DNA from: a phage
Length of the DNA stretch: 64,000 nucleotides
Assembly: GCA_025812035.1 (NCBI GenBank)
Contig: GCA_025812035.1_4719.1
Reading direction: 5' to 3' (one strand)
Below the pieces are notes generated by a model that was given only the letters and a program-made list of their open reading frames with translations, made no database searches and was not told the DNA's origin. This document shows, piece by piece, positions 4,658-7,658 of this stretch. A program made the translations under genes and the position numbers. The first letter of the stretch is position 1; the number at the start of each line of letters is the position of its first letter.

Positions 4658-4864
4658 TCAATCCAGCATAAGCCATGGCATCGCTTTCGCGATAGAATCC
4701 ACCGCAGCATTTGCTATCCTTCGTTCAGTCATTGGCACCACGTGCGCAACGAACCGTTTCCCTTTATTGCAACCTTTCTTGTGTTTTCCTTTGACTAAAC
4801 GAACACCGATCATGTCGTTGATAACATGATTTAGTATGTAGCGCTGTAGAGAATTAATCATCAC
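4658..4864 (-). CDS. hypothetical protein (68 aa)
   Basis: complete ORF, minus-strand array. Confidence 0.35.
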   Translation of the reverse strand: MMINSLQRYILNHVINDMIGVRLVKGKHKKGCNKGKRFVAHVVPMTERRIANAAVDSIAKAMPWLMLD

Positions 4865-5012
4865 TTTTACTCCAGGCAGAGAAGACCCTCGGTTTTAGTT
4901 CTATCTGTCCGCATATCCAGGTGTATCTCCATTTACCTTTACGAGGACCTTTCTTATTTTTAACGCCTATCAGAATACGATAGGGATATGACCAAGTCAT
5001 TCTAAACCCCCC

Positions 5013-5306
5013 TTAATGCAGCCGCTTCTCGAAGTCAGTTTTAAGAAGCACCACTCTTTCATCGATGGTATCCAACGCTTTCAGTAATGATTTACGCTGT
5101 TCCTTTGTAAGCATCTCCGTCTTAAGACGCTTGTTAATTGTTACTTTAAGCTGCACCGCTAGAGTCTGAACAAGCACGCTATCAGCTTCTATCTCGTAAC
5201 TATTTTCTGGCGGTGATAGCACCTCGCTAACGCCAGCGAGATAACAACCTATAACGGTCATTCGTCTATCCATTGCTTCCAGCAACTCAGAACTTACTTC
5301 ATCCAC
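5013..5306 (-). CDS. hypothetical protein (97 aa)
   Basis: complete ORF, minus-strand array. Confidence 0.45.
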   Translation of the reverse strand: MDEVSSELLEAMDRRMTVIGCYLAGVSEVLSPPENSYEIEADSVLVQTLAVQLKVTINKRLKTEMLTKEQRKSLLKALDTIDERVVLLKTDFEKRLH

Positions 5307-5375
5307 GATAACCCTCCGCGAGTTTCTCTATTTCGTTCTGTGTTGCGGGTGGATACACCCACCCGCATCGTTAAT

Positions 5376-6395
5376 TTACACCGCCACCTTAGCCTTGATA
5401 GCCGGATGCGATTGATATCCAACGAACACAAAGTCTTCGTAACGGTAATCCGTAATACTTTCCGGTTTACGTACGATCGTTAGCTTCGGTAATGGATACG
5501 GCTCACGACTGAGCTGCTCTTTAACCTGTTCGAAGTGGTTGTGATAGATGTGACAATCTCCACCAGTCCACACGAACTCACCGACGTCCATATTCAGCTG
5601 TTGGGCAAGCATATGCGTTAACAACGAATATGAGGCGATGTTAAAGCTCCAACCCAAGAGCGTGTCGCACGAACGCTGATAAAGCTGACAGGATAAAGCA
5701 CGTGTTGGTACGTTATGTGTGTTCAACCAAAGTTCTATTTCACTACGTCGTACATCATCCATAACCCACTGGGTTCTTAGTACGTCGTTGCGTCGGACAT
5801 AATCAACGCGTTCATCGATCGTGAGTTCGTGGGTATAGAACTGATAGAAACTGTGGCACGGGGCGAGGTGCATGTCGTCTAAATCGCCTACGTTCCACGC
5901 GCTAACGATGATCCGTCGAGAATCAGGATCTTCTTTAAGCTGACGCATCACGTTTGCAATCTGATCGTGATGTTTAACATACACGAGGTGTTTTAGCATA
6001 CCGTCGTTAAGAATACCACAATACTCGTAACCGCGTTGCATCAACTCGCGAGTACGTTCTGTATCGTGCGGAACAACCACTTTGTAGTCAATCCATTCCC
6101 GCCATTGGCTACCGTAAATCGGTCCTAGATTCCCTTCTTCGTCAGCCCACTCATTCCAAATACGAACACCGTTATCTTGAAGATAAGCAACGTTTGTATC
6201 ACCATTAAGAAACCAGAGCAGTTCGTGGATAACGCTCTTAAGGTGAATCTTCTTAGTGGTTACCAGCGGGAATCCTTTCTTCAAGTCAAAACGCATTTGA
6301 CGTCCGAATACCGAACGGGTACCAGTACCTGTGCGGTCGGCTTTATCGCGACCATTATCCATGATGTCTTGCAAAAGGTCCAAATACTGTTTCAT
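5376..6395 (-). CDS. thyA: thymidylate synthase (ThyA type) with two in-frame insertions
   Basis: N-terminus [46 protein letters not shown], catalytic LAPCH, C-terminal LPKL..KPESI; 339 aa versus about 264 aa for E. coli ThyA. Confidence 0.9.
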
Positions 6396-6604
6396 TTTAA
6401 TCCTCTAAGTGTTTTAACTAGTTCCTGTAATTTGTAATGATATTTAGAATCGCTTAACGTGTAGCAGCAACCACGTAACACGTTATACGCGAAATCAGCT
6501 TGTAAACCACGAACCTTCGGATCCGATGATAGGTTCAATGACGCATCATCAAAAATCCACGCTTCAATGTTCCTCTTAGATTCCTTCGTTAACATCGTTC
6601 TCAC
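6392..6604 (-). CDS. hypothetical protein (70 aa)
   Basis: complete ORF, stop/start overlap with thyA. Confidence 0.4.
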
Positions 6605-6666
6605 CTCGTAGTAAAAGTAAATAGGATTTGTCGAGACGCCCTAATTACTTACAACGTAGGTTCTCC

Positions 6667-7551
6667 TCAATAACGGCCGTAGCGTTCCTCGAGCCGTTCT
6701 GGTTTTCTCAGAAGGCTATCTTTAAGCGGTACGACGTCGATATCAACACTCTCTGAGTAATAGCCGTTAGAACTACCATACCAACGGATGACAACACAGC
6801 CCTTCGCAGTGCGGATATGGTAGAATGTCCATTGTGTACGTTCGCTATAATAGCCGTAGTCATCGGTTCTTTCCTCGGTTCTTTCTTCAGCACTGAGTAT
6901 CTTTTCACCGATGATATCGTTAATATCGCCCTCAATGTCTTCAAGATACACCTCTTCGCAGCAATCCTGCTGATGACAGAATTCGACAACGTTTCCATCG
7001 CCGCGATAGAAAAGAAGGGCGATACCGTTTCGTAATTGCTCGCTCGTTACATCAGACACGCAATGCAAACTTTTATCGTCGGTTATCACCAAGACATTGT
7101 TGATTACATGCCCGGCAAGCGCTCCAATCTTATTTACCGTAACAATCGGACGAACCGGTTCAGATTGAACGATAGGAATACGGACACAACCAATTAAGGC
7201 CATCCGTCCTTTCGTTGGTCTAACCGCAAGATAAGGTGATTTTCTTGGGTGGTTATGTAGTCGTATTTCTACTTCGTTGAATTTAATCCCGTATGAACAC
7301 AGAAAATAATTGAATAGTTTACGGAATTCCTCGGTTGCTTCTTGCAACGTGATGTTATTTACTGTGAGTTTATGTCCCCTAAACACCCGGGTTAAATCGA
7401 TAACATCCAGTGTTTTGAAATATATTTCCGTAAGGGGATGACCCGTGTATTCCAGGCAAGTAATTGTTCTTTGAACCACGATTTTAGGCGGTGCGCCTTT
7501 AAAACGTTTCAGGTATTTAACGCGATAACGGGTATGATCTGACGTTAACAT
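6667..7551 (-). CDS. hypothetical protein (294 aa; start moved to internal ATG)
   Basis: ATG at 7549..7551 preceded by GGAGAGGAG; the longer track ORF would run through the terminator hairpin at 7627..7647. Confidence 0.55.
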   Translation of the reverse strand: MLTSDHTRYRVKYLKRFKGAPPKIVVQRTITCLEYTGHPLTEIYFKTLDVIDLTRVFRGHKLTVNNITLQEATEEFRKLFNYFLCSYGIKFNEVEIRLHNHPRKSPYLAVRPTKGRMALIGCVRIPIVQSEPVRPIVTVNKIGALAGHVINNVLVITDDKSLHCVSDVTSEQLRNGIALLFYRGDGNVVEFCHQQDCCEEVYLEDIEGDINDIIGEKILSAEERTEERTDDYGYYSERTQWTFYHIRTAKGCVVIRWYGSSNGYYSESVDIDVVPLKDSLLRKPERLEERYGRY

Positions 7552-7614
7552 TTTAATCTCCTCTCCTGGCTTCAGAGAATTCTCAAAATCCGTTAGTTTT
7601 GATAGACGGGATAA

Positions 7615-7647
7615 GACGGCATAAAAGCCTCCCGTATTGGGAGGCTC
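7615..7647 (-). terminator. GC hairpin followed by TTTATGCCG
   Basis: stem AGCCTCCC/GGGAGGCT, then TTTATGCCGTC on the minus strand. Confidence 0.5.
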
Positions 7648-7658
7648 CATTAATCGGC

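What the first reader, a model, noticed from the sequence alone, without database searches (positions are those of the whole stretch)
5376..6395. Thymidylate synthase with two large in-frame insertions
The protein aligns with bacterial ThyA end to end but is about 75 residues longer: about 35 extra residues after the conserved QWR.W segment and about 45 extra residues between QFY and [11 protein letters not shown]. Both inserts are in frame and protein-like, so they are lineage-specific domain insertions and not introns.
Basis: partly seen in the sequence, partly recalled or inferred. Interest (0 to 1): 0.35.

Follow-up and report, generated by a model that had tools for sequence, protein, structure and literature searches.

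The report
Phage thymidylate synthase with two inserts
This is an ordinary, intact thymidylate synthase gene of a Goslar-like jumbo phage; its two extra protein segments are real, folded and translated, but they are the norm for a large, essentially viral branch of this enzyme family, not a peculiarity of this genome.

Summary
ORF 5376-6395 (minus strand, 339 aa) aligns end to end with E. coli ThyA (264 aa) in three blocks. That leaves 39 residues (aa 102-140, net +34) after QWREW and 44 residues (aa 189-232, net +41) between QFY and LSCQLYQRS. All catalytic residues are kept.

The inserts are translated protein, not introns or inteins. They are under purifying selection (dN/dS 0.0-0.47, against 0.01-0.06 for the core). 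AlphaFold2 folds them confidently (mean pLDDT 94.6): insert 1 as strand-helix-strand-strand and insert 2 as a three-helix cap.

They are not special to this phage. The gene is the ortholog of Goslar gp141 (94% identity). Insert 2 is detectable in SPN3US-like, Erwinia, phiKZ-like and other phages, and the predicted 201phi2-1 TS structure covers the whole model including both inserts (TM 0.92). Of the 145 nearest full-length 50%-identity clusters, 63 have both inserts. Only 6 matches, all on MAG contigs, turned up in 185,579 cellular genomes.

No solved TS and no curated model has these inserts, and I found no paper describing them. Their role is inferred only: surface modules for dimer or partner contacts.

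Side findings: recombination patches at the active-site strands, and homing-endonuclease-like domains nested at site 1 in relatives.

The parts
5376..6395 (-). thyA coding sequence, 339 codons plus TAA stop (stop = 5376-5378); ortholog of Goslar gp141
6401..6405 (-). Shine-Dalgarno GAGGA, 5 nt before the ATG. The ATG (6393-6395) overlaps the TGA of the upstream 70-aa ORF (6392-6604), giving an ATGA translational-coupling arrangement.
   Evidence: read directly from the sequence
6093..6395 (-). core block 1, aa 1-101 (= E. coli ThyA 1-101); contains R21, E58, W80, W83, Y94
5976..6092 (-). insert 1, aa 102-140. Predicted strand 101-107, helix 112-120, strand 124-130, strand 135-143. It lies at the loop where human TS has its 8-residue eukaryotic insert.
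5832..5975 (-). core block 2, aa 141-188 (= E. coli 107-154); contains R160/R161 (Ec R126/R127) and the catalytic Cys180-His181 (Ec C146-H147)
5700..5831 (-). insert 2, aa 189-232. Predicted helices 193-202, 204-209 and 217-226 cap the tip of the beta-hairpin formed by the catalytic-Cys strand and the LSCQLYQRS interface strand. Conserved motif: L-[TS]-x-x-E-R ... L-D-x-x-x-[VI]-P-x-R.
5379..5699 (-). core block 3, aa 233-339 (= E. coli 158-264); contains R241, S242, D244, N252, H282, Y284 and the C-terminal KAKVAV
5344..5367 (.). G+C-rich stem-loop (9 pairs) 9 nt after the thyA stop codon. There is no T-run on the gene's strand; it is a possible transcript-end or stabilising hairpin.

Best explanation
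Window 5376-6395 (minus strand) encodes a complete, catalytically intact thymidylate synthase (ThyA, dUMP + 5,10-methylene-tetrahydrofolate -> dTMP + dihydrofolate) of a Goslar-like nucleus-forming jumbo phage. It consists of an E. coli-type 264-residue TS core plus two small folded modules that are translated with it. Module 1 (aa 102-140, strand-helix-strand-strand) grows out of the surface loop at the end of the variable 'small domain'. Module 2 (aa 189-232, three helices) caps the tip of the beta-hairpin whose two strands carry the catalytic Cys and the Arg/Ser/Asp dUMP-binding residues and belong to the dimer-interface sheet. Both modules are hallmarks of a large, essentially viral ThyA subfamily. 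Shown: identity as ThyA, insert boundaries, their fold prediction, their purifying selection, and their phyletic spread. Inferred: the chemistry is unchanged and the enzyme supplies dTMP in the host cytoplasm. The modules lie distal to the active site and act as structural or interaction surfaces. My best guess (about 0.35) is that module 2 extends or specialises the homodimer interface and that the modules offer docking surfaces for phage nucleotide-metabolism partners. Their conserved positions look mainly structural (a helix N-cap box [TS]-x-x-E, buried hydrophobics, an E-R/D/R charge set), and the middle of module 2 is free to vary in length and sequence.
For: ThyA identity: Pfam 385 bits full length; NCBIfam equivalogs above cutoff, NF002499 at 425.7 against 405 and NF002497 at 419.7 against 327; E. 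coli TS E 6.6e-116; Foldseek TM 0.96 normalised on E. coli TS. All catalytic and ligand residues are invariant in the alignments.

Inserts translated and constrained: dN/dS for insert 1 is 0.0-0.47 and for insert 2 is 0.0-0.15 in window comparisons, against 0.01-0.06 for the core outside the mosaic patches. Base composition matches the rest of the gene and no other copies exist in the window. Rfam finds nothing relevant.

Fold: mean pLDDT 94.6, with only residues 211-220 dipping to 78. The independent BFVD model of 201phi2-1 TS superposes at TM 0.92 on the query against 0.75 for E. coli TS.

Spread: Goslar 93.8%, and jumbo phages at 57-63% with full coverage. Insert 2 is detectable in 75 phage records and insert 1 in 17. 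Of the 145 nearest full-length cluster representatives, 63 carry both inserts. Only 6 MAG contigs matched in 185,579 cellular genomes, and the two long ones have ORFan neighbours.

Conserved insert positions: L191, T192, E195 (80%), R196 (91%), L224, D225, V229, P230 (93%), R232; mean net charge is slightly acidic.

Interface location of the strand after insert 2: PMC8041318. Cytoplasmic location of chimallivirus TS: PMC9067925.
Against: No activity, oligomer state or partner was tested. Co-occurrence of the two inserts is only weak (odds ratio about 2), so they need not work together. phiKZ TS knock-down has only a weak phenotype (PMC12571901), so no strong functional requirement is documented. 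Purifying selection on the inserts could reflect nothing more than the need not to misfold.
Confidence: 0.8

Rival explanations
1. The inserts are functionally neutral decorations. Both loops tolerate insertions, a segment was fixed early in a viral ThyA lineage, and it is now kept only because removing it would destabilise the fold.
For: Both sites are general insertion hot spots with lengths from about 15 to 275 residues. The middle of insert 2 is hypervariable in length and sequence. Inserts evolve 3-10 times faster than the core. The two inserts occur independently of each other.
Against: Several charged, presumably exposed positions are strongly conserved across clusters at 42-58% identity: E195 80%, R196 91%, D225 62%, R232 71%. 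The modules persist over very deep divergence, with 36% identity to 201phi2-1.
Confidence: 0.3
2. The inserts descend from in-frame mobile insertions related to homing endonucleases. Insert 1 in the window would then be either the platform into which such modules insert or the stump left after one was deleted.
For: In other family members site 1 carries 170-275 residues that keep the same first and last strands as the window's insert 1 and nest a domain. That domain matches phage families annotated as HNH endonuclease (phrog_2081 E 1.2e-43 and 8.1e-32) and has a weak I-HmuI NUMOD-like hit. thyA is a classic homing-endonuclease target (PMC11620839, PMC2853131, PMC5746245). The gene shows recombination patches.
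Against: The window's insert 1 itself has no similarity to endonuclease families. The small form, with its G-Y and hydrophobic pattern, is conserved across many divergent clusters. That pattern fits an old structural element into which the larger domains were later nested. Insert 2 shows no such link.
Confidence: 0.12
3. The enzyme has a changed chemistry (for example dUMP or dCMP hydroxymethylase, or another pyrimidine-modifying TS homolog), and the inserts remodel the active site.
For: TS-superfamily enzymes in phages do make modified pyrimidines (PMC7824862). Close relatives (Goslar, L002, the SPN3US-like set) carry non-canonical residues on the active-site strands.
Against: The window's allele is fully canonical: C180-H181, Q240-R241-S242-x-D244, N252 (not Asp), H282, Y284, W80, W83, Y94 and the complete C-terminus. 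It scores above the cutoffs of ThyA equivalog models. The inserts are at the far ends of the strands from the catalytic residues.
Confidence: 0.04
4. The extra segments are removed before the mature protein forms, either as introns at RNA level or as inteins at protein level.
For: thyA/td genes of other phages do carry group I introns.
Against: The segments are 117 and 132 nt, in frame and without stops, far below group I/II intron and intein sizes. There is no Rfam hit. Substitutions are mostly synonymous. Amino-acid motifs are conserved across distant relatives. The segments are predicted as integral folded elements continuous with core strands. Their ends (I102...V140, H189...R232/A233) lack the Cys/Ser/Thr ... 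His-Asn + Cys/Ser/Thr intein signature.
Confidence: 0.01

Closest known systems
Escherichia phage vB_EcoM_Goslar gp141 (QBO63934.1, 'putative thymidylate synthase') and the TS genes of other chimallivirus-type jumbo phages (SPN3US, phiEaH2, CR5, Erwinia phages, phiKZ gp235-like, 201phi2-1 B3FJL1)
   Same: Same length (339 aa in Goslar) and the same two inserts at the same sites. Identity is 93.8% to Goslar and 57-63% to the SPN3US/Erwinia group. The structural match to the 201phi2-1 model has TM 0.92.
   Different: The window's allele has canonical active-site strands ([15 protein letters not shown]) where Goslar has ALPACH and CMLLARSQD. 201phi2-1 and phiKZ-like proteins have longer versions of the inserts and further additions (457 aa).
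E. coli ThyA (PDB 2tsc, 1aob and many others)
   Same: 69% identity over aligned columns. All catalytic and ligand-binding residues match, with the same N- and C-termini. TM is 0.96 normalised on the E. coli chain.
   Different: It lacks both inserts: 5 residues (PTPDG) where the window has 39, and 3 residues (ADG) where it has 44.
Lactobacillus casei TS (PDB 1lca) with its 50-residue small-domain insert
   Same: It is a bacterial TS enlarged by an in-frame surface insertion in the variable small-domain region.
   Different: The L. casei insert lies before GDLG(P/L)VYG, 12 aligned residues upstream of site 1, and is unrelated in sequence. L. casei has nothing at site 2.
Human and other eukaryotic TS (PDB 1hw3), 'eukaryotic insert 2'
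   Same: The extra human residues in HFGAEYRDMESDYSGQG fall at exactly site 1, between QWR.(W/F) and (I/V)DQ(I/L).
   Different: It is 8 residues against 39, with no sequence similarity and no strand-helix-strand-strand unit. Human TS has nothing at site 2.
Phage T4 Td (PDB 1tis)
   Same: It is a phage TS with lineage-specific surface inserts that were proposed to mediate contacts in the dNTP-synthesising complex. This is from my own recollection of Finer-Moore et al. 1994 and was not checked here.
   Different: As far as I recall, the T4 inserts are at other positions, and the td gene has a group I intron near the FLG/LPFN codons.

Membership tests
Thymidylate synthase ThyA (Pfam PF00303; NCBIfam NF002499/NF002497/TIGR03284) | Full-length profile match above curated cutoffs | tested here: met
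   PF00303 385 bits (cutoff 24.3), residues 2-339 to profile 1-266 of 266. NF002499 425.7 against 405; NF002497 419.7 against 327; TIGR03284 361.1 against 108.35.
Thymidylate synthase ThyA | Catalytic and ligand residues in E. coli numbering: R21, E58, W80, W83, Y94, R126, R127, C146, H147, Q165, R166, S167, D169, N177, H207, Y209, and the C-terminal residue | tested here: met
   Window R21, E58, W80, W83, Y94, R160, R161, C180, H181, Q240, R241, S242, D244, N252, H282, Y284 and the C-terminal V339 align to these positions.
Thymidylate synthase ThyA | TS fold | tested here: met
   AF2 model pLDDT 94.6. Foldseek against E. coli TS: E 1.4e-42, TM 0.96 on the target.
Thymidylate synthase ThyA | Obligate homodimer with shared active sites; dTMP-forming activity | not testable with these tools
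   No multimer prediction or assay was available. R160/R161, the residues donated to the partner's site, are conserved.
Two-insert viral ThyA subfamily (undescribed grouping defined here) | Site 1 insert of about 17-40 residues between QWR.W and (I/V)DQ(I/L), with hydrophobic strand positions 106/107, G-Y (122/123) and V138 | tested here: met
Two-insert viral ThyA subfamily (undescribed grouping defined here) | Site 2 insert between QFY and LSC, starting (L/M)-(T/S)-x-x-E-R and ending L-D-x-x-x-(V/I)-P-x-R | tested here: met
   The window has L191-T192-I-D-E195-R196 ... L224-N225-T-H-N-V229-P230-T-R232. The same is found in 75 phage records.
dCMP / dUMP hydroxymethylases of the TS superfamily | Asp in place of Asn177 (dCMP-specific enzymes); divergent or absent C-terminal closing segment | tested here: not met
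   N252 is retained and the C-terminus KAKVAV aligns with E. coli KAPVAI. The features of these families are from my own knowledge.
Inteins | At least ~130 residues; Cys/Ser/Thr at the first residue; His-Asn at the end, followed by Cys/Ser/Thr | tested here: not met
   The inserts are 39 and 44 residues. They begin with I102 and H189 and end V140|K141 and R232|A233.
Group I / group II introns | Structured RNA of at least ~200 nt, not constrained as codons | tested here: not met
   117 and 132 nt, in frame. dN/dS is well below 1. No Rfam match in 4800-7000 at E<=1 apart from two chance-level hits outside the gene.
L. casei-type small-domain insert | Insertion between WDEWA and GDLG | tested here: not met
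   The window has no extra residues there (A1, A4).
NCBIfam NF010393 (PRK13821, 323-position ThyA model) | Score of at least 576 bits | tested here: not met
   The window protein scores 213 bits. The best E-value among the 37 subfamily members is 4.2e-71.

The most novel reading that the evidence does not exclude
The two modules are not passive. Module 2, sitting on the interface hairpin, would make the phage enzyme dimerise only with itself, so that it avoids mixed dimers with the roughly 70%-identical host ThyA. Together with module 1 it would dock the enzyme into a phage-specific cytoplasmic nucleotide-synthesis assembly. Separately, site 1 and the codons just after insert 2 would be arenas of homing-endonuclease conflict: in-frame endonuclease-like domains nested in relatives, and recoded active-site patches. 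In that case thyA in these phages would record a new intein-less mode of in-frame mobile insertion.
Probability: 0.12. Interest if true: 0.55.

Novelty: new variant of a known kind. Interest (0 to 1): 0.22.

Why it matters
As it stands, little changes: the gene is a normal phage dTMP-synthesis gene and should be annotated as thymidylate synthase. The useful outcome is a clear definition of a large viral ThyA subfamily with two conserved extra modules. No crystal structure, curated model or paper that I could find describes it. That definition could serve as a viral marker when binning metagenomes. It also gives structural biologists a defined target: what do a three-helix cap on the dimer-interface hairpin and a small sheet on the small domain do for a phage enzyme that works beside a near-identical host enzyme? 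The side observations are probably the more interesting leads. These are the coupled active-site allele patches, the recombination hot spot downstream of insert 2, and the endonuclease-like domains nested at site 1 in relatives.

Tried and rejected
1. Mobile-element or repeat origin: blastn and tblastn of both insert sequences against the whole window found only chance-level short matches, and the inserts' GC content equals that of the gene.

2. Intron: the Rfam E-value scan of 4800-7000 found nothing relevant.

3. Known inserted TS structures: Foldseek against the PDB found no chain covering the inserts; the best TM on the query was 0.75.

4. The AFDB50 fold search, meant to look for cellular proteins with the same architecture, was not available on the machine. 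I replaced it with BFVD and a degenerate DNA pattern scan of 185,579 genomes.

5. Curated subfamily model: NF010393 aligned across site 1 in one stretch, but no subfamily member comes near its cutoff.

6. Host origin of the divergent active-site patch: blastn (word size 11) of window 5600-5760 against 5,426 complete E. coli genomes gave no match.

7. Identity of the large nested site 1 domain: Pfam gave only a sub-threshold NUMOD-like hit and the PDB sequence search gave nothing. PHROGs identified it as endonuclease-like.

8. Contact analysis of the model: coordinates are not exposed to the scripting tool. I could not measure insert-insert, insert-active-site or insert-interface distances, and I could not submit a dimer.

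9. Nucleic-acid-binding role: the inserts are on average slightly acidic (net -1.5 and -2.3), so I dropped that idea.

10. Nuclear-import signal: TS-GFP is excluded from the phage nucleus in related phages, so I dropped that idea too.

Full report
**1. What is at the coordinates**

The minus strand of 5376-6395 is a single ATG-to-TAA ORF of 339 codons. A GAGGA Shine-Dalgarno sequence lies 5 nt upstream. The ATG overlaps the TGA of the preceding 70-codon ORF, and a G+C-rich stem-loop follows the stop codon.

Three results identify the product as thymidylate synthase:
- It matches Pfam Thymidylat_synt over its whole length (E 1.9e-115).
- It scores above the curated cutoffs of three NCBIfam ThyA equivalog models.
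- It hits E. coli thymidylate synthase in the PDB at E 6.6e-116.

**2. The observation**

HMMER aligns the protein to E. coli TS in three blocks:
- query 1-101 to E. coli 1-101
- query 141-188 to E. coli 107-154
- query 233-339 to E. coli 158-264

Residues 102-140 (window 5976-6092) therefore stand where E. coli has the five residues PTPDG. Residues 189-232 (window 5700-5831) stand where E. coli has ADG. The net additions are +34 and +41, which together equal 339-264 = 75. Multiple alignments give the same boundaries.

**3. The inserts are translated protein, not introns, inteins or mobile DNA**

- They are 117 and 132 nt long and in frame. Their G+C content (0.44-0.46) is like the rest of the gene, and no other copy exists in the 64 kb window.
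- Rfam finds no intron or other RNA family in the gene.
- I compared the gene with three close relatives: Goslar, a 248 kb ENA scaffold and an 18 kb contig. Most substitutions in the inserts are synonymous. dN/dS is 0.0-0.47 for insert 1 and 0.0-0.15 for insert 2 in window comparisons. The core outside two mosaic patches gives 0.01-0.06.
- The insert ends do not fit an intein, and the sizes are far too small.
- AlphaFold2, run with a 37-sequence alignment, gives mean pLDDT 94.6 and pTM 0.92. Insert 1 forms strand 101-107, helix 112-120, strand 124-130 and strand 135-143. Insert 2 forms helices 193-202, 204-209 and 217-226. These helices sit on a hairpin whose strands (181-190 and 232-244) are continuous with the core strands. 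Only residues 211-220 dip, to pLDDT 78.

**4. The enzyme looks fully competent**

Every residue known to bind dUMP or the folate, or to take part in catalysis, is present. This includes the nucleophile Cys180 (E. coli C146), the four phosphate-binding arginines, Asn252 (E. coli N177, the residue that selects uracil over cytosine) and the complete C-terminus. The core superposes on E. coli TS with TM 0.96 normalised on the E. coli chain. I therefore see no sign of a hydroxymethylase or other altered chemistry in this allele.

**5. Where the gene comes from and how common the inserts are**

The window is a relative of Escherichia phage vB_EcoM_Goslar, a nucleus-forming jumbo phage. Nucleotide identity is 87.6% around the gene. 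The gene is the ortholog of Goslar gp141, also 339 aa and 93.8% identical.

Evidence that the inserts are widespread among phages:
- Full-length matches at 57-63% identity occur in SPN3US-like Salmonella phages, many Erwinia jumbo phages, Cronobacter CR5, Proteus phage 7 and others.
- A tblastn with only insert 2 and a few flanking residues finds 75 phage records. They include phiKZ-like Pseudomonas phages, Xanthomonas LucasX and a few phages of about 75 kb (Delftia RG-2014, Aeromonas HJ05).
- Insert 1 is detectable by sequence in 17 records.
- The independently predicted structure of the 201phi2-1 enzyme (36% identity) superposes at TM 0.92 normalised on my model, against 0.75 for E. coli TS. 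Both modules are therefore structurally shared.
- The large protein collection holds hundreds of 339-353-residue homologs on contigs of 220-250 kb.

I also measured insert lengths in the 150 nearest 50%-identity cluster representatives, of which 145 have a full-length core:

| Extra residues (>=15) | Representatives |
|---|---|
| at both sites | 63 |
| at site 1 only | 25 |
| at site 2 only | 33 |
| at neither | 24 |

The architecture is nearly absent from cellular genomes. A degenerate DNA pattern for C-H-x2-F-Q-F-Y-x2-E-x-[ST]-x2-E-R matched only six contigs among 185,579 species-representative genomes. All six are in metagenome-assembled genomes. The two long contigs have neighbours without any Pfam family, as phage DNA typically does. 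This pattern covers only part of the subfamily, so it is a sample and not a census.

**6. Comparison with known TS inserts**

I verified my typed L. casei and human sequences as identical to PDB chains 1lca_A and 1hw3_A, then aligned them.
- The classical 50-residue L. casei insert lies before GDLG, 12 aligned residues upstream of site 1.
- The 8-residue eukaryotic insert of human TS lies exactly at site 1, but it is short and unrelated in sequence.
- None of the three reference enzymes has anything at site 2.

No solved structure covers either module. No NCBIfam model represents the subfamily: NF010393, which has 323 positions, scores 213 bits for the window protein against a cutoff of 576, and its best E-value among 37 members is 4e-71. 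Reviews and genome papers on jumbo phages mention TS only as a conserved nucleotide-metabolism gene. I found no description of the inserts, within the limits of the open-access library.

**7. What the modules probably do (inference)**

Within 55 members that carry both modules, the conserved positions fall into three groups:
- buried-looking hydrophobics: 106, 107, 123, 138; 191, 197, 199, 200, 220, 223, 224, 229
- a helix N-cap box: T/S192-x-x-E195
- a small set of charged residues: E195 80%, R196 91%, D225 62%, R232 71%, plus P230 at 93%

The middle of module 2 varies freely in length (29-71 residues at the site) and in sequence. Both modules are slightly acidic on average, which argues against nucleic-acid binding.

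The strand that follows module 2 (LSCQLYQR) is a documented monomer-monomer interface element of TS (PMC8041318). Module 2 caps a hairpin of the interface sheet, at the end distant from the catalytic Cys and Arg. [quoted passage not shown] The enzyme therefore works in the cytoplasm, alongside a host ThyA that is about 70% identical.

My best guess is that the modules are structural or interaction surfaces: a dimer-interface extension or homodimer specificity for module 2, and partner docking for either module. A purely neutral, fold-locked decoration is almost as likely. Antisense knock-down of phiKZ TS has only a weak effect (PMC12571901). I could not compute contacts, because model coordinates are not exposed and a dimer could not be submitted.

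**8. Side findings**

(a) Mosaic patches. Between the window and Goslar the gene is about 8% divergent, but two short patches are far more divergent. These are codons 174-181 (window about 5853-5876) and codons 233-252 (about 5640-5699). In the second patch 29 of 60 nt differ, including almost every third codon position.
- The patches define coupled alleles. HLAPCH goes with CQLYQRSCD in the window and L003. ALPACH goes with CML(L/T)ARSQD in Goslar and L002.
- The 132 nt of insert 2 lying between the patches differ by one base between the window and L002.
- Across 119 homologs the coupling is strict, with a third pair, LNPCHNY with CF..MRSND. Meanwhile insert 2 length and the D-x-x-L-G-x-P segment just downstream occur in all six combinations.
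- The patch is not a recent copy of host thyA.
- The two patches encode neighbouring active-site strands. The second covers the stretch that corresponds, from my own knowledge of the T4 td and B. mojavensis thyA systems, to the homing site of I-TevI and I-BmoI (compare PMC2853131). Co-adapted allele cassettes shuffled by recombination, perhaps driven by endonuclease attack, would explain this. That explanation is untested.

(b) Endonuclease-like domains at site 1. In many relatives site 1 carries 170-275 residues that keep the first and last strands of the window's insert 1. They nest a domain matching phage families annotated as HNH endonuclease (phrog_2081, E 1.2e-43), with a C-terminal NUMOD-like helix-turn-helix. 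Site 1 is thus a landing pad for in-frame homing-endonuclease-like modules.

**9. Verdict**

The gene is an ordinary member of a large, essentially viral, structurally uncharacterised ThyA subfamily. Interest is low for the finding itself. The side findings are modestly interesting leads.

Noticed in passing
window ~5853-5876 and ~5640-5699 (minus strand; thyA codons 174-181 and 233-252): Two short patches on the active-site strands are about 50% divergent from Goslar, including synonymous sites, in a gene that is otherwise ~8% divergent. They form strictly coupled alleles (HLAPCH+CQLYQRSCD against ALPACH+CML.ARSQD against LNPCHNY+CF..MRSND across 119 homologs). The nearly identical insert 2 lies between them, and the segment just downstream reassorts freely. 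They are not derived from E. coli thyA. Possible explanations are co-adapted cassettes or homing-endonuclease-driven conversion.
   Followed up: partly
proteins P0123, P0130, P0134, P0138, P0140, P0185 and others (site 1, between QWR.W and IDQI): ThyA relatives carry 170-275-residue in-frame inserts at site 1. These keep the window's first and last insert strands and nest a domain matching phage families annotated as HNH endonuclease (phrog_2081, E 1e-43), with a NUMOD-like C-terminal motif. There is no intein signature and no PDB sequence match.
   Followed up: partly
window 6667-7650 (minus strand): A 327-aa ORF (C-terminal part matches phrog_2650, unknown function) lies between the homologs of Goslar gp143 and gp142. 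It is absent from Goslar and from contig L003. A 294-aa gene with DUF7448 occupies the same place in the 248 kb scaffold L002. This is an indel of about 1 kb just upstream of thyA.
   Followed up: partly
proteins P0003-P0120; loci L004, L005: Hundreds of near-identical two-insert ThyA sequences (339-353 aa, 63-66% identical to the window) sit on 220-227 kb contigs. These come from metagenomes and from assemblies labelled Salmonella, E. coli or Shigella. The contigs look like a jumbo phage (a 2388-aa SLT-domain protein and ORFan neighbours). Their ThyA is closer to the window's in insert 1 than SPN3US's is, and at 63-66% identity it is slightly above every non-Goslar phage record (at most 63%), so this phage group may be missing from that collection.
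   Followed up: partly
protein P0121 (476 aa): A two-insert ThyA with an additional ~135-residue N-terminal extension that has no Pfam match.
   Followed up: no
window 5344-5367: A 9-bp G+C-rich stem-loop lies immediately after the thyA stop codon. The terminator scan calls it on the plus strand only, where a T-rich tail follows. On the gene's own strand there is no T-run.
   Followed up: no
loci L006-L011 (MAG contigs from Clostridium, Lysinibacter, Saccharibacteria, Bacilli and Cetobacterium bins): The only genome-collection matches to the insert 2 pattern are on MAG contigs with ORFan neighbours, probably phage contigs mis-binned into bacterial MAGs. L006 and L011 additionally carry a ~75-residue insert at the L. 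casei site.
   Followed up: partly
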